64,000 bases of DNA, taken from assembly GCA_964016885.1 (NCBI GenBank), contig OZ024755.1, forward strand, positions 19,592,001 to 19,656,000. Direction: 5' to 3'. This DNA comes from Eledone cirrhosa. Lineage: Eukaryota. The notes under the pieces were generated by a model. The model worked only from the letters and a program-made list of their open reading frames with translations, made no database searches and was not told the DNA's origin. The first letter of the stretch is position 1, and every line of letters starts with the position of its first letter. Shown in pieces: positions 23,972 through 53,815 of this stretch. Made by a program: the position numbers and the translations under genes.

Positions 23972-24014
23972 GACGAAACATAAGTCAATTGCATGAACTC
24001 ATAATCCTTTATTT

Positions 24015-24060
24015 ACTGCTATATATATTTCGATTGAAGGCTATGACCTCATCAGGCAGT
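24015..24060 (-). ncRNA. Minimal type I hammerhead motif
   Basis: Minus strand reads ACTGC-CTGATGA-GGTCATAGCCTTCAATC-GAAA-TATATA-TA-GCAGT, giving a 5-bp stem I and a weak 3-bp stem II. Confidence 0.7.
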
Positions 24061-24174
24061 TAGTCAGTTCTTAGATATGCCAGCTCTGTGTTTATGGTGT
24101 TGATGGTATCATACCCTTGGGACATATATATATATATATATATATGATATATCTATATATATATATGATATTGT

Positions 24175-25862: not shown

Positions 25863-25910
25863 GATAGACTTAATTAATAATTATTAATAATGCTATATCG
25901 TGCAATGGCC

Positions 25911-25982
25911 ATATATTTTATCTGATGAGGATGTACTGAAAAAACAGCACTGTACCTCCGAAATATATATAATAAAATATAT
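25911..25982 (+). ncRNA. Type I hammerhead ribozyme motif (PLE/retrozyme-like), intact core
   Basis: ATATATTTTAT-CTGATGA-GGATGTAC..GTACCTCC-GAAA-TATATA-TA-ATAAAATATAT. Stem I is a perfect 11 bp, stem II pairs 7 of 8, and stem III is palindromic. Predicted cleavage is after 25971. Confidence 0.85.
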
Positions 25983-26142
25983 TTTGATTACGTTGAATGT
26001 CTATATTTATTAATATTTTGAATTAATATATATATATATATATATGACACAGGCCATGGAGTAAGAGACAAGACAAAACAATACTTTACAGCAATTATAC
26101 ATACACACACACACACATTATATATATATATATATATATATA

Positions 26143-32865: not shown

Positions 32866-33039
32866 GACTCTGCAATAGTAGCAATATGGAGAGCATCATA
32901 AAAAATATAATATAAAATATAATATAAAATAAAATATAATATAAAACATATAAAAACAACAGAAGTAGCAGCTGAGAGACTCGTAAAAAATAATAATGTT
33001 AAATTTAATAATAGCAATAATTACAATAGAAACAACCCA

Positions 33040-36000
33040 ACCACCACACCACCACCACCACCACCACAACAACAACCACCAGTACACCAACACCACCACC
33101 ACAACAACTACTAGTAACAGCAACACAACCACAACCACCAGTACACCAACACCACCACCACAACAACTACTAGTAACAGCAACACAACCACAACCACCAG
33201 TACACCAACACCACCACCACAACAACTACTAGTAACAGCAACACAACCACAACCACCAGTACACCAACACCACCACCACAACAACTACTAGTAACAGCAA
33301 CACAACCACAACCACCAGTACACCAACACCACCACCACAACAACTACTAGTAACAGCAACACAACCACAACCACCAGTAACACCAACACCACCACCACAA
33401 CAACTACTAGTAACAGCAACACAACCACAACCACCAGTACACCAACACCACCACCACAGCCACTACTAGTAACAGCAACACAACCACAACCACCAGTACA
33501 CCAACACCACCACCACAACAACTACTAGTAACAGCAACACAACCACAACCACCAGTAACACCAACACCACCACCACAACAACTACTAGTAACAGCAACAC
33601 AACCACAACCACCAGTAACACCAACACCACCACCACAACAACTACTAGTAACAGCAACACAACCACAACCACCAGTACACCAACACCACCACCACAACAA
33701 CTACTAGTAACAGCAACACAACCACCACCACCAGTAACACCAACACCACCACCACAACAACTACTAGTAACAGCAACACAACCACAACCACCAGTACACC
33801 AACACCACCACCACAACAACTACTAGTAACAGCAACACAACCACCACCACCAGTAACACCAACACCACCACCACAACAACTACTAGTAACAGCAACACAA
33901 CCACAACCACCAGTACACCAACACCACCACCACAACAACTACTAGTAACAGCAACACAACCACCACCACCAGTAACACCAACACCACCACCACAACAACT
34001 ACTAGTAACAGCAACACAACCACAACCACCAGTACACCAACACCACCACCACAACAACTACTAGTAACAGCAACACCACCACAACCACCAGTACACCAAC
34101 ACCACCACCACAACAACTACTAGTAACAGCAACACAACCACAACCACCAGTACACCAACACCACCACCACAACAACTACTAGTAACAGCAACACAACCAC
34201 CACCACCAGTACACCAACACCACCACCACAACAACTACTAGTAACAGCAACACAACCACAACCACCAGTACACCAACACCACCACCACCACAACAACTAC
34301 TAGTAACAGCAACACAACCACAACCACCAGTACACCAACACCACCACCACCACAACAACTACTAGTAACAGCAACACCACCACAACCACCAGTACACCAA
34401 CACCACCACCACAACAACTACTAGTAACAGCAACACCACCACAACCACCAGTACACCAACACCACCACCACAACAACTACTAGTAACAGCAACACAACCA
34501 CAACCACCAGTACACCAACACCACCACCACAACAACTACTAGTAACAGCAACACAACCACAACCACCAGTACACCAACACCACCACCACCACAACAACTA
34601 CTAGTAACAGCAACACAACCACAACCACCAGTACACCAACACCACCACCACAACAACTACTAGTAACAGCAACACAACCACAACCACCAGTACACCAACA
34701 CCAACACCACAACAACTACTAGTAACAGCAACACAACCACAACCACCAGTACACCAACACCACCACCACAACAACTACTAGTAACAGCAACACAACCACC
34801 ACCACCAGTAACACCAACACCACCACCACAACAACTACTAGTAACAGCAACACAACCACAACCACCAGTACACCAACACCACCACCACAACAACTACTAG
34901 TAACAGCAACACAACCACAACCACCAGTACACCAACACCACCACCACAACAACTACTAGTAACAGCAACACAACCACAACCACCAGTACACCAACACCAC
35001 CACAACAACTACTAGTAACAGCAACACAACCACAACCACCAGTACACCAACACCACCACAACAACTACTAGTAACAGCAACACCACCACAACCACCAGTA
35101 CACCAACACCACCACCACAACAACTACTAGTAACAGCAACACAACCACAACCACCAGTACACCAACACCAACACCACAACAACTACTAGTAACAGCAACA
35201 CAACCACAACCACCAGTACACCAACACCACCACCACAACAACTACTAGTAACAGCAACACAACCACAACCACCAGTACACCAACACCACCACCACAACAA
35301 CTACTAGTAACAGCAACACAACCACAACCACCAGTAACACCAACACCACCACCACAACAACTACTAGTAACAGCAACACAACCACAACCACCAGTAACAC
35401 CAACACCACCACCACAACAACTACTAGTAACAGCAACACAACCACAACCACCAGTACACCAACACCACCACCACAACAACTACTAGTAACAGCAACACAA
35501 CCACAACCACCAGTACACCAACACCACCACCACAACAACTACTAGTAACAGCAACACAACCACAACCACCAGTACACCAACACCACCACCACAACAACTA
35601 CTAGTAACAGCAACACAACCACAACCACCAGTACACCAACACCACCACCACAACAACTACTAGTAACAGCAACACAACCACAACCACCAGTACACCAACA
35701 CCACCACCACAACAACTACTAGTAACAGCAACACAACCACAACCACCAGTACACCAACACCACCACCACAACAACTACTAGTAACAGCAACACAACCACA
35801 ACCACCAGTACACCAACACCACCACCACAACAACTACTAGTAACAGCAACACAACCACAACCACCAGTACACCAACACCACCACCACAACAACTACTAGT
35901 AACAGCAACACAACCACAACCACCAGTACACCAACACCACCACCACAACAACTACTAGTAACAGCAACACAACCACAACCACCAGTACACCAACACCACC

Positions 36001-39000
36001 ACCACAACAACTACTAGTAACAGCAACACAACCACAACCACCAGTACACCAACACCACCACCACAACAACTACTAGTAACAGCAACACAACCACAACCAC
36101 CAGTACACCAACACCACCACCACAACAACTACTAGTAACAGCAACACAACCACAACCACCAGTACACAACACCACCACCACCACAACAACTACTAGTAAC
36201 AGCAACACAACAACAACCACCAGTAACACCAACACCACCACCACAACAACTACTAGTAACAGCAACACAACCACAACCACCAGTACACCAACACCACCAC
36301 CACCACAACAACTACTAGTAACAGCAACACAACAACAACCACCAGTAACACCAACACCACCACCACAACAACTACTAGTAACAGCAACACAACCACAACC
36401 ACCAGTACACCAACACCACCACCACCACAACAACTACTAGTAACAGCAACACAACAACAACCACCAGTAACACCAACACCACCACCACAACAACTACTAG
36501 TAACAGCAACACAACCACAACCACCAGTACACCAACACCACCACCACAACAACTACTAGTAACAGCAACACAACCACAACCACCAGTACACCAACACCAC
36601 CACCACAACAACTACTAGTAACAGCAACACCACCACAACCACCAGTACACCAACACCACCACCACCACAACAACTACTAGTAACAGCAACACAACCACAA
36701 CCACCAGTACACCAACACCACCACCACCACAACAACTACTAGTAACAGCAACACAACCACAACCACCAGTACACCAACACCACCACCACAACAACTACTA
36801 GTAACAGCAACACAACCACAACCACCAGTACACCAACACCACCACCACAACAACTACTAGTAACAGCAACACAACCACAACCACCAGTACACCAACACCA
36901 CCACCACCACAACAACTACTAGTAACAGCAACACAACCACAACCACCAGTACACCAACACCACCACCACAACAACTACTAGTAACAGCAACACAACCACA
37001 ACCACCAGTACACCAACACCACCACCACAACAACTACTAGTAACAGCAACACCACCACAACCACCAGTACACCAACACCACCACCACACAACTACTAGTA
37101 ACAGCAACACAACCACAACCACCAGTACACCAACACCACCACCACACAACTACTAGTAACAGCAACACAACCACAACCACCAGTACACCAACACCACCAC
37201 CACAACAACTACTAGTAACAGCAACACCACCACAACCACCAGTACACCAACACCACCACCACAACAACTACTAGTAACAGCAACACAACCACAACCACCA
37301 GTACACCAACACCACCACCACAACAACTACTAGTAACAGCAACACAACCACAACCACCAGTACACCAACACCACCACCACAACAACTACTAGTAACAGCA
37401 ACACCACCACAACCACCAGTACACCAACACCACCACCACAACAACTACTAGTAACAGCAACACAACCACAACCACCAGTACACCAACACCACCACCACAA
37501 CAACTACTAGTAACAGCAACACAACCACAACCACCAGTACACCAACACCACCACAACAACTACTAGTAACAGCAACACAACCACAACCACCAGTACACCA
37601 ACACCACCACCACAACAACTACTAGTAACAGCAACACAACCACAACCACCAGTACACCACACCACCACACAACAACTACTAGTAACAGCAACACAACCAC
37701 AACCACCAGTACACCAACACCACCACAACACTACTAGTAACAGCAACACAACCACAACCACCAGTACACCAACACCACCACAACAACTACTAGTAACAGC
37801 AACACAACCACAACCACCAGTACACCAACACCACCACCACAACAACTACTAGTAACAGCAACACAACCACAACCACCAGTACACCAACACCACCACCACA
37901 ACAACTACTAGTAACAGCAACACAACCACAACCACCAGTACACCAACACCACCACCACAACAACTACTAGTAACAGCAACACAACCACAACCACCAGTAC
38001 ACCAACACCACCACCACAACAACTACTAGTAACAGCAACACAACCACAACCACCAGTACACCAACACCACCACCACAACAACTACTAGTAACAGCAACAC
38101 AACAACAACCACCAGTACACCAACACCACACCACAACAACTACTAGTAACAGCAACACAACCACAACCACCAGTACACCAACACCACCACCACAACAACT
38201 ACTAGTAACACCACCACAACCACAACCACCAGTACACCACACCACCACCACAACAACTACTAGTAACAGCAACACAACCACAACCACCAGTACACCAACA
38301 CCACCACCACAACAACTACTAGTAACAGCAACACAACCACAACCACCAGTACACCAACACCACCACCACAACAACTACTAGTAACAGCAACACAACCACA
38401 ACCACCAGTACACCAACACCACCACCACAACAACTACTAGTAACAGCAACACAACCACAACCACCAGTACACCAACACCACCACCACAACAACTACTAGT
38501 AACAGCAACACAACCACAACCACCAGTACACCAACACCACCACAACAACTACTAGTAACAGCAACACAACCACAACCACCAGTACACCAACACCACCACC
38601 ACAACAACTACTAGTAACAGCAACACAACCACAACCACCAGTACACACACCACCACCACAACTACTAGTAACAGCAACACAACCACAACCACCAGTACAC
38701 CAACACCACCACCACAACAACTACTAGTAACAGCAACACAACCACAACCACCAGTAACACCAACACCACCACCACGGCCACTAGTAACAGCAACACAACA
38801 CAACCACCAGTACACCAACACCACCACCACAACAACTACTAGTAACAGCAACACAACCACAACCACCAGTAACACCAACACCACCACCACAACAACTACT
38901 AGTAACAGCAACACAACCACAACCACCAGTACACCAACACACCACCACAACTACTAGTAACAGCAACACAACCACAACCACCAGTACACCAACACCACCA

Positions 39001-42000
39001 CCACAACAACTACTAGTAACAGCAACACAACCACAACCACCAGTACACCAACACCACCACCACAACAACTACTAGTAACAGCAACACAACCACAACCACC
39101 AGTACACCAACACCACCACCACAACAACTACTAGTAACAGCAACACAACCACAACCACCAGTACACCAACACCACCACCACAACTACTAGTAACAGCAAC
39201 ACAACCACAACCACCAGTACACAACACCACCACCACAACAACTACTAGTAACAGCAACACAACCACAACCACCAGTACACCAACACCACCACCACAACAA
39301 CTACTAGTAACAGCAACACAACCACAACCACCAGTACACCAACACCACCACCACAACAACTACTAGTAACAGCAACACAACCACAACCACCAGTACACCA
39401 ACACCACCACCACAACAACTACTAGTAACAGCAACACAACCACAACCACCAGTAACACCAACACCACCACCACGGCCACTAGTAACAGCAACACAACCAC
39501 AACCACCAGTAACACCACACCACCACCACAACAACTACTAGTAACAGCAACACAACCACAACCACCAGTAACACCAACACCACCACCACAACAACTACTA
39601 GTAACAGCAACACAACCACAACCACCAGTACACCAACACCACCACCACAACTACTAGTAACAGCAACACAACCACAACCACCAGTACACCAACACCACCA
39701 CCACAACAACTACTAGTAACAGCAACACAACCACAACCACCAGTAACACCAACACCACCACCACGGCCACTAGTAACAGCAACACAACCACAACCACCAG
39801 TACACCAACACCACCACCACAACAACTACTAGTAACAGCAACACAACCACAACCACCAGTAACACCAACACCACCACCACAACAACTACTAGTAACAGCA
39901 ACACAACCACAACCACCAGTACACCAACACCACCACCACAACAACTACTAGTAACAGCAACACAACCACAACCACCAGTACACCAACACCACCACCACAA
40001 CAACTACTAGTAACAGCAACACAACCACAAGTACACCAACACCACCACCACAACAACTACTAGTAACAGCAACACAACCACAACCACCAGTAACACCAAC
40101 ACCACCACCACAACAACTACTAGTAACAGCAACACAACCACAACCACCAGTACACCAACACCACCACCACAACAACTACTAGTAACAGCAACACAACCAC
40201 AACCACCAGTACACCAACACCACCACCACAACAACTACTAGTAACAGCAACACAACCACAACCACCAGTACACCAACACCACAACAACTACTAGTAACAG
40301 CAACACAACCACAACCACCAGTACACCAACACCACCACCACAACAACTACTAGTAACAGCAACACAACCACAACCACCAGTACACCAACACCACCACCAC
40401 AACAACTACTAGTAACAGCAACACAACCACAACCACCAGTAACACCAACACCACCACCACAACAACTACTAGTAACAGCAACACAACCACAACCACCAGT
40501 ACACCAACACCACCACCACAACAACTACTAGTAACAGCAACACAACCACAACCACCAGTACACCAACACCACCACCACAACAACTACTAGTAACAGCAAC
40601 ACAACCACAACCACCAGTACACCACCACCACAACAACTACTAGTAACAGCAACACAACCACAACCACCAGTACACCAACACCACCACCACAACAACTACT
40701 AGTAACAGCAACACAACCACAACCACCAGTACACCAACACCACCACCACAACAACTACTAGTAACAGCAACACAACCACAACCACCAGTACACCAACACC
40801 ACCACAACAACTACTAGTAACAGCAACACAACCACAACCACCAGTACACCAACACCACCACCACAACAACTACTAGTAACAGCAACACAACCACAACCAC
40901 CAGTACACCAACACCACCACCACAACAACTACTAGTAACAGCAACACAACCACAACCACCAGTACACCAACACCACCACAACAACTACTAGTAACAGCAA
41001 CACCACCACAACCACCAGTACACCAACACCACCACCACAACAACTACTAGTAACACCACCACAACCACAACCACCAGTACACCAACACCACCACCACAAC
41101 AACTACTAGTAACAGCAACACAACAACAACCACCAGTACACCAACACCACCACCACAACAACTACTAGTAACACCACCACAACCACAACCACCAGTACAC
41201 CAACACCACCACCACAACAACTACTAGTAACACCACCACAACCACAACCACCAGTACACCAACACCACCACCACAACAACTACTAGTAACACCACCACAA
41301 CCACAACCACCAGTACACCAACACCACCACCACAACAACTACTAGTAACAGCAACACAACAACAACCACCAGTACACCAACACCACCACCACAACAACTA
41401 CTAGTAACAGCAACACAACCACAACCACCAGTACACCAACACCACCACAACAACTACTAGTAACAGCAACACAACCACAACCACCAGTACACCAACACCA
41501 CCACAACAACTACTAGTAACAGCAACACAACAACAACCACCAGTACACCAACACCACCACCACAACAACTACTAGTAACAGCAACACAACCACAACCACC
41601 AGTACACCAACACCACCACCACAACAACTACTAGTAACAGCAACACCACCACAACCACCAGTTCACCAACACCAACACCACAACAACTACTAGTAACAGC
41701 AACACAACCACAACCACCAGTACACCAACACCACCACCACAACAACTACTAGTAACAGCAACACAACCACAACCACCAGTACACCAACACCACCACCACA
41801 ACAACTACTAGTAACAGCAACACAACAACAACCACCAGTACACCAACACCACCACCACCACAACTACTAGTAACAGTAACACCACCACAACCACCAGTAA
41901 CACCAACACCACCACCACAACAACTACTAGTAACAGCAACACAACCACAACCACCAGTACACCAACACCACCACCACAACAACTACTAGTAACAGCAACA

Positions 42001-43270
42001 CAACCACAACCACCAGTACACCAACACCACCACCACAACAACTACTAGTAACAGCAACACAACCACAACCACCAGTACACCAACACCACCACCACAACAA
42101 CTACTAGTAACAGCAACACAACCACAACCACCAGTAACACCAACACCACCACCACAACAACTACTAGTAACAGCAACACAACAACAACCACCAGTACACC
42201 AACACCACCACCACAACAACTACTAGTAACAGCAACACAACCACAACCACCAGTAACACCAACACCACCACCACAGCCACTAGTAACAGCAACACAACCA
42301 CAACCACCAGTAACACCACCACCACCACAACAACTACTAGTAACAGCAACACAACCACCACCACCAGTAACACCAACACCACCACCACAACAACTACTAG
42401 TAACAGCAACACCACCACAACCACCAGTACACCAACACCACCACCACAACAACTACTAGTAACAGCAACACAACCACAACCACCAGTACACCAACACCAC
42501 CACCACAACAACTACTAGTAACAGCAACACAACCACAACCACCAGTAACACCAACACCACCACCACAACAACTACTAGTAACAGCAACACAACCACAACC
42601 ACCAGTACACCAACACCACCACCACAACAACTACTAGTAACAGCAACACAACCACAACCACCAGTACACCAACACCACCACCACAACAACTACTAGTAAC
42701 AGCAACACAACCACAACCACCAGTACACCAACACCACCACCACAACAACTACTAGTAACAGCAACACAACCACCAGTACACCAACACCACCACAACAACA
42801 ACAACTACTAGTAACAGCAACACAACCACAACCACCAGTAACACCAACACCACCACCACAACAACTACTAGTAACAGCAACACAACCACAACCACCAGTA
42901 ACACCAACACCACCACCACCAGTAACACCAACACCACCACCACCAGTAACACCAACACCACCACCACCACCACCAGTAACACCAACACCACCACCACCAG
43001 TAATACCACCACCACCACCACCAGTAACACCAACACCACCACCACCAGTAATACCAACACCACCACCACAACCACCAGTAACACCAACACTACCACCACC
43101 ACCACCACAACAACAACCACCAGTACACCAACACCACCACCACAACAACTACTAGTAACAGCAACACAACCACAACCACCAGTAACACCAACACCACCAC
43201 CACAGCCACTAGTAACACCACCACAACCACAACCACCAGTACACCAACACCAACACCACAGCCTCTAGTA
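33040..43270. repeat. About 10-kb satellite array with a 59/60-bp unit
   Basis: Unit CCAGTA(A)CACCAACACCACCACCACAACAACTACTAGTAACAGCAACACAACCACAACCA, roughly 170 copies. Confidence 0.98.
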
Positions 43271-43900
43271 ACACCACTACAACCACCAGTACACCAACAC
43301 CACCACCACCAGTAATACCACCACCACCACCACCAGTAACACCAACACCACCACCACCAGTAACACCACCACCACCACCACCAGTAACACCACCACCACC
43401 ACCACCAGTAACACCAACACCACCACCACCAGTAATACCACCACCACCACCACCAGTAACACCAACACCACCACCACCAGTAATACCACCACCACCACCA
43501 CCAGTAACACCAACACCACCACCACCACCACCACCACCACCACCAGTAACACCAACACCACCACCACCAGTAATACCACCACCACCACCACCAGTAACAC
43601 CAACACCACCACCACCAGTAATACCAACACCACCACCACCAGTAACACCACTACCACCACCACCACCACCAGTAACACCAACACCACCAGTAACACCAAC
43701 ACCACCACCACCAGTAACACCAACACCACCACCACAACCACCAGTAACACCAACACTACCACCACCACCACCACCACCAGTAACACCAATAACACCAATA
43801 TCACCACCTCCAGCATTACCAACACCTCCAGCAACAGCAGTAACAACAACACGACGCCCACCACCACCACACCACCACTAACAACAGCAACAGCAACAAC
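43271..43900. repeat. (CAC)n-CAGTAA-CACCAA short-period degenerate repeat
   Basis: Variable units of about 21-30 bp on the right of the satellite. Confidence 0.9.
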
Positions 43901-44244
43901 ACTCATAAAGCAACATATTGTTTTGATCAGCTGTCAGATATTTTGTAGATGACTTATAAGAACATTTTTTTGCTCCATCCTCTTCCCTTCTCACCTTGAT
44001 TTCACTTCAGCATCTTAGTAACACTCGACTGTACATACATCAGATATATACTGGGATACTGGGGTAATGGTGCTTCCAGTGATACTGATGCCTGTGTTTC
44101 GATACTTGCAGCTGGTATTGCAAACAACCTCCACTACGTCTACACATAACTATAATCCACTATTACTAAGAAATAAACTGTATATATATATATATATATA
44201 TACAATATTAAATAAATGGAAAACTATATTTATAAAACCATATT

Positions 44245-44310
44245 TATTTCATTATATATATTTCGGGGATATCATATTAACAATATGCTATGCCTTCATC
44301 AGACAAAATA
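44245..44310 (-). ncRNA. Mirror copy of the same hammerhead in the left arm
   Basis: Reverse complement of 44498-44563 (TATTTCAT-TA-TATATA-TTTC...TCATCAG-ACAAAATA). Confidence 0.8.
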
Positions 44311-44497
44311 CAATATAAACAGTTTTATAGATAAATATATTCGACATACCGTAATAAACATCAACTTCATTTGAAGAGGTTTACTCTAGCAGAGTAAACC
44401 TCTTCAAATGTTACTCTGCTAGAGTAAACCTCTTCAAATGAAGTTGATGTTTATTACAGTATGTCGAATATATTTATCTATAAAACTGTTTATATTG

Positions 44498-44563
44498 TAT
44501 TTTGTCTGATGAAGGCATAGCATATTGTTAATATGATATCCCCGAAATATATATAATGAAATA
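44498..44563 (+). ncRNA. Type I hammerhead motif in the right arm of a 197-bp inverted repeat
   Basis: TATTTTGT-CTGATGA-(A)GGCATAGCATATT-GTT-AATATGATATCCC(C)-GAAA-TATATA-TA-ATGAAATA. Stem I is 8 bp with two G-U pairs; stem II pairs 11 of 13. Confidence 0.8.
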
Positions 44564-44691
44564 AATATGGTTTTATAAATATAGTTTTCCATTTATTTAA
44601 TATTGTAAATATACTCCAAATATTTGTCGAGTGCTTTTATATCAGTTATAAATATTTACTAGTTGTAACCCAACAATTTTAAATATAACTT

Positions 44692-44722
<31 letters not shown>

Positions 44723-44726
<4 letters not shown>

Positions 44727-44931
44727 GAACGAGTAGGACCCCGACGGCTGAGCTCAAGCCGTTTCGACGGCTAATTCTGGATTATTTTTTTAGTCCAGAA
44801 TTAGCCGTCGAAACGGCTTGAGCTCAGCCGTCGGGGTCCTACTCGTTCCTATTACCCACTCTACTACCCTAAGTATCGAGTACTCTGGTGCGTTATGGTT
44901 CACCTGGTTCCTTACCACACTTTCTTTGTTT
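44723..44931 (+). mobile_element. Family C fold-back copy within (TA)n
   Basis: Near-perfect inverted repeat 44723-44852 (about 59-bp arms) followed by the family tail. Diverged relatives lie at about 45053-45140 (+) and 49055-49130 (-). Confidence 0.85.
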
Positions 44932-52727: not shown

Positions 52728-52761
<34 letters not shown>

Positions 52762-52769
<8 letters not shown>

Positions 52770-52973
52770 TAACAGATTAAAGTTTAAGCAAAGTATCGCT
52801 GCTTTCACCCTTAACGGGATCTTCTGAACCAGTTAAGGGCGAAAGCAGCGATTCTTTGCTTAAACTTTAATCTGTTATTTTAATAAATATTTCCTCTACG
52901 GTTCTTATATATTTGATATATATTTATCCTTATCGAGCCCTCTTTGGATTTTAGTCTTCAAATTTATTATTAT

Positions 52974-52980
<7 letters not shown>
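52762..52980. mobile_element. Fold-back element in (TA)n (inverted repeat 52762-52885); relative at about 49645-49780
   Basis: Arms are about 54 bp with a 16-nt spacer. GAAAGCAGCGATTCTTTGCTTAAACTTTAATCTG and GAAGACTAAAATCCAAAGAGGGC both recur at 49645-49780 in a different relative orientation. Confidence 0.8.
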
Positions 52981-53010
<30 letters not shown>

Positions 53011-53512
53011 TATAAGGTGTTGTAGTTTGCTTGAAGCATTGTGGAATATGAGATACACATATAACTAGGAAATAAGTTTGTTTATTTGGAAGTTCGGCAA
53101 GGCATATTAGGTAAGAATGTCAAGGTAATAAGAATTAATTATTAAAAATTACTAAGGTAACTTTCTATCGCCCGCACTCTTCTACTTCAGTGAATTTTAT
53201 ACCTATTATATACCTGTCGAAACATCCTCCACTCCCTCCAAGCGTGAACCTAATATAACTCTGTAAAAATTGCCTCCTGTGTTTTGTTTGTTATATATAT
53301 ATATATATATATAATATAGAAAAATAAAACCACGCATATACATATATATATATATGTAGAGGTTATATTTAATTTGTTGGGATACAACAAGCAAAATATT
53401 TTTATAACTGATATAAAGCACTCAACAAATTATTGGAGTAAATATACAATATATTAATGGTTGCATTTTTTCAGGGTATGTCAATTTTTATTTATAAAAC
53501 TAACCTATATTA

Positions 53513-53578
53513 TATTTTATCTGATGAAAGCGCACCATAATTTAATTTGGTGGCCCTTGAAATATGTATAATGAAATA
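53513..53578 (+). ncRNA. Type I hammerhead motif, same family as 44498
   Basis: TATTTTAT-CTGATGA-AAGCGCACCA..TGGTGGCCCTT-GAAA-TATGTA-TA-ATGAAATA. The downstream tail matches 44556-44590, but stem II is a different self-complementary sequence. Confidence 0.8.
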
Positions 53579-53616
53579 AATATGGTTTTATAAATATAGT
53601 TTCCATTTGTTAATAT

Positions 53617-53689
<73 letters not shown>

Positions 53690-53755
53690 CCACGCATTTA
53701 TATAAATATATATATATAAAACCACGCATATATATATATATATATAAAACCACGC

Positions 53756-53786
<31 letters not shown>

Positions 53787-53815
53787 CACGCATATATATA
53801 TATGTATGTATATAC

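What the first reader, a model, noticed from the sequence alone, without database searches (positions are those of the whole stretch)
53355..53620. Same family as the 44-kb element, with stem II replaced and modules rearranged
53513-53615 shares stem I, core and tail with 44498-44605, but stem II is a different hairpin (AAGCGCACCA..TGGTGGCCCTT versus GGCATAGCATATT..AATATGATATCC). This is within-window evidence that structure rather than sequence is conserved. 53355-53458 is the reverse complement of the 44596-44697 tail and is placed upstream, again as an inverted junction.
Basis: seen in the sequence. Interest (0 to 1): 0.7.

Follow-up and report, generated by a model that had tools for sequence, protein, structure and literature searches.

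The report
Back-to-back Penelope hammerhead fragments
This is a short back-to-back insertion of a known kind of animal jumping gene (a Hydra-type Penelope element) carrying a predicted self-cutting hammerhead RNA found over 41,000 times in this genome; its hairpin changed by paired mutations rather than being swapped, and its copy ends suggest the enzyme likely starts copying near the front of its own RNA.

Summary
53513-53578 is a type I minimal-hammerhead motif in the pseudo-LTR of a Penelope-like retroelement whose 737-aa protein carries the Hydra-clade motifs. One exact pattern finds 41,579 copies (control 0), and 52 of the 61 best-scoring ORF copies have no stop. Stem II pairing is kept across subfamilies by two-sided changes around a fixed C-C mismatch, so structure is conserved. 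Stem II was not replaced: G-U intermediates link the 53-kb and 44-kb forms. Modules were not rearranged either: both loci are head-to-head pairs of 5'-truncated arms in (TA)n, one with the ~90-nt tail and one without (17/17, 19/19 and 28/28 resolved pairs). At 53 kb the tail arm is simply short. Inner ends pile up just downstream of an Inr-like site with DPE-like and splice-donor-like motifs, which suggests run-off at the RNA's 5' end; this held on 40 fresh loci. A predicted pile-up at the first tail hairpin did not replicate. Cleavage and expression are untested. The scan already noted this clade, the C-C mismatch and two-armed insertions elsewhere in this genome. Verdict: new member of a known kind.

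The parts
53356..53457 (-). Tail-bearing arm, 5'-truncated: about 90-nt tail plus about 11 nt of the region before it; outer end ('site 2') abuts (TA)n
   Evidence: 83% to 44600-44710; 98-100% to tails directly following the hammerhead region in L006, L007, L010, L016; anatomy
53456..53620 (+). Tail-less arm: element positions about +24 to +188 counted from the Inr-like site; outer end ('site 1') abuts (TA)n
   Evidence: 97-98% copies elsewhere in the genome; same end in many copies
53456..53457 (.). Head-to-head junction with a 2-nt overlap
   Evidence: Read directly from the sequence against reference L019
53459..53463 (+). DPE-like motif (RGWYV at +27; consensus recalled); the Inr-like +1 site itself is truncated away in this copy
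   Evidence: At +27/+28 in 12 of 15 long references; function inferred
53476..53481 (+). Splice-donor-like GTAYGT (+44); acceptor not found
   Evidence: At +39 to +46 in 14 of 15 references; D. virilis Penelope has a donor 46 nt after its start (PMC2377424); splicing not shown
53513..53578 (+). Type I hammerhead motif: stem I 53513-20/53571-78, core 53521-27, stem II 53528-58 (C-C mismatch at pair 4), GAAA 53559-62, palindromic stem III 53562-69, predicted cut after 53570
   Evidence: no Rfam hammerhead hit; cleavage untested
44195..44392 (-). 44-kb element, tail-less arm (sister subfamily), inner end about +2
   Evidence: 97% palindrome; ends
44416..44694 (+). 44-kb element, tail-bearing arm with hammerhead (core 44506-12), inner end about +2, tail 44606-44694
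   Evidence: this subfamily's pLTR flanks the 737-aa ORF in L056
25910..26024 (+). Third subfamily of the same pLTR hammerhead (stem II starting GGA), tail-less, followed by (TA)n
   Evidence: 74% to the 53-kb copy; same stem II register and C-C

Best explanation
The locus is one insertion of a Penelope-like retroelement with Hydra-clade protein motifs, made of two 5'-truncated pseudo-LTR arms joined head to head in (TA)n, and it was likely formed when the element's endonuclease cut both strands and two reverse transcriptases copied the sense RNA from two internal start sites about 90 nt apart. SHOWN: the pLTR flanks a 737-aa RT plus GIY-YIG-type ORF; there are two fixed outer ends; resolved inverted pairs have exactly one tail; stem II covaries by stepwise substitution; inner ends pile up just downstream of an Inr-like site. 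INFERRED: transcription starts at that site from an internal Inr-DPE promoter; many cDNAs are primed in the 5' pLTR and run off the RNA's 5' end; the two cDNA ends are joined by microhomology; the hammerhead would cut only as a dimer or with protein help, and it is not what sets the copy ends.
For: Full element L056: inverted arm, pLTR, ORF, pLTR with tail. The 53-kb subfamily pLTR lies downstream of the EN-coding end in L053 and L054, and its RT fragment is 75% identical to P0001. Hydra motifs present and CCHH absent (criteria from PMC8557442 section 11). 41,579 pattern matches versus 0. 52 of the 61 top ORF copies are stop-free at 96-100% identity. One tail per pair: 17 of 17, 19 of 19 (read by hand), 28 of 28 pre-registered (two share a junction). 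Inner ends: 18 in +1..+31 versus 0 in -30..0 among 38 usable arms (post hoc); 23 in the 34 nt downstream versus 3 in the 30 nt upstream on fresh loci, p 1.5e-4. Two-site internal initiation and two-strand cleavage are shown in vitro for Poseidon (PMC11167929).
Against: No RNA, cleavage or enzyme data. No Pfam or PDB hit for the protein, and no tree against published Hydra proteins. The sharp +1..+4 peak was weak on fresh loci (5 of 26, p 0.02). Many full-length copies carry 330 nt or more of direct sequence upstream of the Inr-like site (noisy references), so longer tandem templates also exist. The pre-registered pile-up of tail arms at the first tail hairpin failed (2 of 8, p 0.52), so there is no support for both enzymes sharing one RNA molecule. 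Monomer MFE folds sequester the GAAA core, and pair 10.1-11.1 is G-C in only 2 of 64 variants.
Confidence: 0.75

Rival explanations
1. Inverted arms arise by self-priming (fold-back), possibly on an antisense template, as hypothesised for rotifer Penelope elements.
For: Proposed in PMC3846280 (passages). Some pairs have near-symmetric palindromic centres, e.g. the 44-kb copy and L068.
Against: At 53 kb the two arms share only about 11 nt, so one cannot be a fold-back copy of the other; the same holds for tail-only arms in 14 of 30 and 7 of 40 loci. Inner ends respect the sense-strand Inr-like site.
Confidence: 0.12
2. The wall of inner ends marks an RT pause or RNA-processing site (structure, spliced 5' end) rather than a transcription start.
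For: Seven of 71 ends on fresh loci lie beyond -217, of which 2 are spurious TA matches. No RNA evidence for the start.
Against: The wall coincides with a conserved YCAC(T/A) and a DPE-like motif at +27/+28 across diverged subfamilies, the layout reported for D. virilis Penelope. An Inr-like TCACT was also noted in rotifer pLTRs.
Confidence: 0.2
3. The short copies are a separate non-coding retrozyme or SINE family with a swappable stem II module.
For: Most sampled arms are short and non-coding. Retrozymes derived from PLE pLTRs are proposed in print (10.64898/2026.07.22.740005, part 1 of 5).
Against: Short copies are nested truncations of long copies that reach the ORF. No tandem monomer array at this locus. 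Stem II variants form a graded series with G-U intermediates on a tree built without stem II.
Confidence: 0.05

Closest known systems
Hydra clade of C-terminal EN+ Penelope-like elements (Craig et al. 2021, PMC8557442), including Hydra-1_Obim from Octopus bimaculoides
   Same: Single ORF with RT then EN; RW(K/R), DKT, CxCx5C linker, no CCHH, CxxC and CxH around E and N; (TA)n target; hammerhead in the pLTR; inverted 5'-truncated arm with a one-sided tail.
   Different: Unit about 3.7-3.9 kb versus 'generally <3 kb'; RWR rather than RWK; tail about 90 nt versus 30-40; the hammerhead differs from all Hydra rows seen in supplement file S2 (AU-only stem III, longer stem II with a C-C mismatch); Hydra-1_Obim was listed without a pLTR.
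[quoted passage not shown]
   Same: Conserved core, long stem II, palindromic helix III implying a dimer, many within-genome variant families, opposite-strand pairs 100-700 bp apart.
   Different: Closing pair mostly A-U or G-U, not G10.1-C11.1; fixed internal C-C; stem I of 8 bp.
Poseidon_Ac in vitro mechanism (Frangieh et al. 2024, PMC11167929)
   Same: Two genomic ends delimiting a tail; AT-rich targets; hammerhead cleavage not evident in copy ends.
   Different: There the ORF starts inside the hammerhead and the start sites lie in the ORF; here both ends lie upstream of the ATG and are followed by short AT runs in the element.
Drosophila virilis Penelope internal promoter (Schostak et al. 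2008, PMC2377424)
   Same: Inr, DPE and a splice donor about 46 nt downstream of the start.
   Different: Here inferred from sequence and copy ends only; no acceptor found.

Membership tests
Hydra-clade PLE | Single ORF, RT followed by C-terminal GIY-YIG EN | tested here: met
   737-aa ORF with YRDD at 352 and an IVY..YVG-type EN at the C-terminus; identified by motif only, no Pfam hit
Hydra-clade PLE | RWK motif; DKG changed to DKT | tested here: met
   RWR at 37 (variant) and DKT at 118, no DKG; RW[KR] in 56 of 71 full-length homologues
Hydra-clade PLE | CxCx5C linker; CCHH absent; CxxC and CxH around E and N | tested here: met
   CxCx5C at 596, CxxC..E at 694, C-terminal CxH; my CCHH pattern hits neither P0001 nor any of 71 homologues
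Hydra-clade PLE | Insertion in (TA)n; hammerhead in pLTR; inverted arm with one-sided tail | tested here: met
Hydra-clade PLE | Length generally under 3 kb | tested here: not met
   pLTR-to-pLTR spacing 3859 bp in L056 and 3676 bp in L146, because of a long 3' UTR; the paper gives this as a tendency, not a rule
Hydra-clade PLE | Groups with published Hydra RTs in a phylogeny | not tested
   Published Hydra proteins were not in hand; supplementary alignments not seen
Type I minimal hammerhead | Core CUGAnGA, GAAA, UH cleavage site, stems I-III | tested here: met
   N7 varies (69 T, 13 A, 9 G, 9 C of 100). Stems I and III were fixed by my search pattern, so only stem II is a free test
Type I minimal hammerhead | G10.1-C11.1 closing pair | tested here: not met
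   A-U 46, G-U 13, A-C 3, G-C 2 of 64 variants
Type I minimal hammerhead | Palindromic helix III allowing a dimer | tested here: met
   8-nt self-complementary word; predicted duplex weak, -3.2 and -2.2 kcal/mol
Type I minimal hammerhead | Self-cleavage | not testable with these tools
   Needs an in vitro assay; monomer MFE is not the hammerhead fold; no Rfam hammerhead hit
Non-LTR retrozyme | Tandem non-coding monomers, each with a hammerhead | tested here: not met
   Single inverted pair; nested in ORF-bearing copies

The most novel reading that the evidence does not exclude
Copy ends give an in vivo map of the Penelope cycle. Every insertion is primed from both strands of the cut (TA)n with obligate asymmetry (one arm at each of two internal sites), and most short copies are run-off cDNAs from the 5' pLTR of a sense RNA that starts at an Inr-DPE promoter. 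That would explain the solo, opposite-strand hammerhead pairs seen across animal genomes and argue against antisense self-priming. The 52 stop-free ORF copies offer a ready Hydra-clade enzyme to test it.
Probability: 0.5. Interest if true: 0.55.

Novelty: new member of a known kind. Interest (0 to 1): 0.3.

Why it matters
The finding itself is ordinary: a Penelope pLTR hammerhead with covarying stem II, a class in print since 2014 and a clade in print since 2021 with an octopus member. What is useful is quantitative. A young, very abundant family shows strict one-tail asymmetry and a wall of inner ends at a promoter-like site. This turns the open question of how PLE inverted structures and tails form into a direct test (5' RACE, in vitro priming). 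At over 41,000 copies for one strict pattern, these motifs are also a sizeable class of potential self-cleaving RNA in this genome.

Tried and rejected
Rfam at gathering score on the whole window: 0 hits; by E-value on 53340-53640: 6 chance-level hits, none a hammerhead. Pfam on three ORF pieces: nothing at cut-off. PDB sequence search: nothing credible. The repeat finder was swamped by the 59-bp satellite and TA runs. Sequencing runs: no RNA holder listed; laying contigs of three coded runs gave no usable information on expression, splicing or ends. Automatic choice of references for inner ends was contaminated by TA runs and inverted tails and was redone with curated references. Rejected: pile-up of tail arms at the first tail hairpin (seen post hoc, failed pre-registered test); hammerhead cleavage as the source of inner ends (no pile-up at the cut site, -50); stem II module swap; fold-back origin of the 53-kb junction. 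No splice acceptor or spliced copy was identified. Two of 100 strand labels listed disagreed with the fetched DNA; the fetched DNA was used.

Full report
OBSERVATION. The two loci were read. Within the window, 53484-53628 matches 44470-44613 (82%, E 6e-33), and 53342-53452 matches the reverse complement of 44600-44710 (83%, E 7e-26). The 44-kb element is a 97% palindrome. Both carry CTGATGA, a hairpin, GAAA, a short palindrome and an 8-bp stem I, the layout of a type I hammerhead (numbering recalled). A third subfamily copy lies at about 25910-26024. Rfam does not score the motif.

IT IS THE pLTR OF A PENELOPE-LIKE ELEMENT. The 53-kb arm has 97-98% copies across the genome (54 matches from 40 scored of 986 candidates). 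Several copies extend upstream for more than 1 kb into a shared 3' UTR and then into an endonuclease-coding end. L056 holds a whole unit of the 44-kb subfamily: inverted truncated arm, pLTR, 737-aa ORF, 3' UTR, pLTR with tail, then (TA)n. An RT fragment from the 53-kb subfamily is 75% identical to that protein. The protein has RWR, DKT, YRDD, a CxCx5C linker, CxxC and CxH around the late E and N, and no CCHH. This is the list given for the Hydra clade in PMC8557442 (section 11 read; passages). That paper's supplement (part 2 of 59 plus search hits) lists Hydra families with (TA)n targets and hammerheads, one from Octopus bimaculoides with a different hammerhead. I did not see its alignments or trees, which bear on clade membership. 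A protein search gave 154 homologues at E<=1e-20, at 30-42% identity among those listed; three named ones are from Argonauta hians. One exact pattern spanning stem I, core, stem III and stem I' finds 20,887 + 20,692 matches against 0 for the reversed pattern. Of the 61 best ORF matches scored (95,296 first-look candidates), 52 have no stop, at 96-100% identity, so the family was recently active.

STEM II. I took the first 100 listed matches (all on contig C1, so one region only), which gave 64 distinct stem II sequences. Stems I and III were fixed by the pattern, so stem II is the free test. Pairing inward from the core, pairs 1, 2, 3, 5 and 6 are paired in 61, 60, 63, 61 and 62 of 64; pair 4 is never paired and is C-C in 58. 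Overall 539 of 576 cells pair against a shuffle maximum of 486; a one-base bulge was allowed before pair 7, which favours pairs 7-10 only. On a MAFFT alignment of 63 of these arms plus the three window copies (most duplicates and two internally deleted variants left out), 7 of 9 stem II pairs change on both sides and the covariation score is 0.345 against 0.232 shuffled. Two pair-count measures do not exceed their shuffles. Sliding the partners lowers pairing from 94% to 36-57%. RNAalifold predicts only stem II, with a covariation term of -1.9. Related copies inflate these counts. A tree of 52 arms built without stem II is poorly resolved in places, but it shows the 53-kb type (pairs 2, 5, 6 = A-U, G-C, C-G) and the 44-kb type (G-C, A-U, U-A) linked by forms with G-U at pairs 2 and 5. 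The stem is homologous and changed stepwise. Within-genome families with compensatory changes were already described for PLE hammerheads (PMC4209133, parts 1-2 of 4). Against activity: the closing pair is G-C in 2 of 64, and the monomer MFE pairs the 5' U-run with GAAA.

ARCHITECTURE. Copies have two outer ends about 90 nt apart, both at (TA)n. Among the first 100 matches, 17 same-subfamily inverted pairs all have exactly one tail (16 by rule, 1 by inspection; one mixed-subfamily pair left out). Sampling instead by the tail of the 53-kb subfamily (890 matches), 19 of 30 loci had a partner whose outer end could be read, and all 19 were tail-less (read by hand). On 40 fresh loci, with the prediction noted beforehand, 28 of 28 resolved partners were tail-less; 3 partner hits were unresolved and 9 loci had none in range. 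Tail arms that stop inside the tail occur in 14 of 30 and 7 of 40 loci. The 53-kb locus is such a case, a tail arm of about 101 nt joined to a 165-nt tail-less arm through a 2-nt overlap. Inverted truncated arms and a one-sided tail are known PLE features. Because the two arms here share only about 11 nt, one is not a fold-back copy of the other.

INNER ENDS. In 15 long references from diverged subfamilies, a YCAC(T/A) lies 59-93 nt upstream of the hammerhead (the only such motif in 130 nt in 14 of 15). RGWYV follows at +27/+28 in 12 (0.04 expected per sequence by shuffling, but the references are related), and GTAYGT at +39 to +46 in 14. D. virilis Penelope has Inr, DPE and a donor 46 nt after the start (PMC2377424, passages). 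Of the 100 arms, 47 had a good reference and 9 of these were dropped as alignments that failed next to the hammerhead. Of the remaining 38, 18 end in +1..+31 (9 in +1..+4) and none in -30..0 (post hoc). On the fresh loci, 23 ends fall in the 34 nt downstream of +1 and 3 in the 30 nt upstream (p 1.5e-4), though the +1..+4 peak itself is weak. Both 44-kb arms start at about +2. A second prediction, that tail arms stall at the first tail hairpin, failed (2 of 8).

MECHANISM. Inferred: Pol II starts at the Inr-like site. The protein cuts both strands of (TA)n and primes two cDNAs at two internal sites. When these sites are in the 5' pLTR, the cDNAs run off within about 190 or 280 nt; when they are in the 3' pLTR, they can reach full length. 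The inner ends are then joined by microhomology, in the manner of L1 twin priming (recalled). Two-strand cleavage, two internal start sites matching the tail, and a protein-assisted hammerhead that is dispensable for insertion were shown in vitro for Poseidon (PMC11167929, parts 1-2 of 4). The published alternative is antisense self-priming (PMC3846280, passages).

NOVELTY. Five literature searches returned no paper on this family or on run-off at the pLTR start. The library lacks most subscription journals, and a 2026 Octopus vulgaris repeat annotation mentions no hammerheads in its main text (PMC13282606, passages). Earlier notes of this scan on the same genome already report the Hydra assignment, the C-C mismatch, two-armed insertions, tail hairpins and an RNA-start reading for another family. 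These are unchecked AI notes; the promoter-wall result here was obtained before I saw the last. Verdict: real, explained, new member of a known kind; interest 0.3.

Noticed in passing
window 23990-24090 (-), core at 24055: Another hammerhead-like motif with a short stem II and the same AU palindromic stem III but different flanks, between (TA)n runs; a GGGTATG motif lies upstream.
   Followed up: no
window 44727-44852 and on to 44930: A perfect ~125-bp hairpin element inserted in the TA run next to the 44-kb element; relatives flank L118 and L176.
   Followed up: no
window 52760-52980: Another (TA)n-inserted element with an inverted arm pair; relatives flank L023 and L072.
   Followed up: no
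window about 32900-44000: About 11-kb satellite of a 59-bp unit with extreme strand skew (GC skew about -0.78, AT skew about 0.74).
   Followed up: no
window 53325-53345 and 53685-53790: The 53-kb insertion sits inside a degenerate minisatellite of a short CCACGC word alternating with TA runs; no target-site duplication can be read.
   Followed up: partly
tail, 44606-44694 and 53356-53446: The tail folds into two hairpins, one just after the first outer end and one just before the second. In L056 a hairpin-like sequence resembling the first follows the second end, just before the ATG.
   Followed up: partly
L174/L175 and L251/L253: Pairs of loci share the same inner junction, so whole inverted units were duplicated or re-mobilised.
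   Followed up: no
L056:3356-3409: Both outer ends are followed in the element by short AT runs (2-8 nt), which could anneal to a cut (TA)n target, unlike the non-homologous start reported for Poseidon.
   Followed up: partly
L054:3-2700; L057:3872-6952; L055:47-1838: Unrelated mobile-element ORFs next to the copies: two LINE-type RT/AP-endonuclease regions and a Helitron-like helicase region (read from translation; labels recalled).
   Followed up: no
run X5: Short contigs from a second coded organism lie on the pLTR and tail, a weak hint that the family occurs in another species.
   Followed up: no
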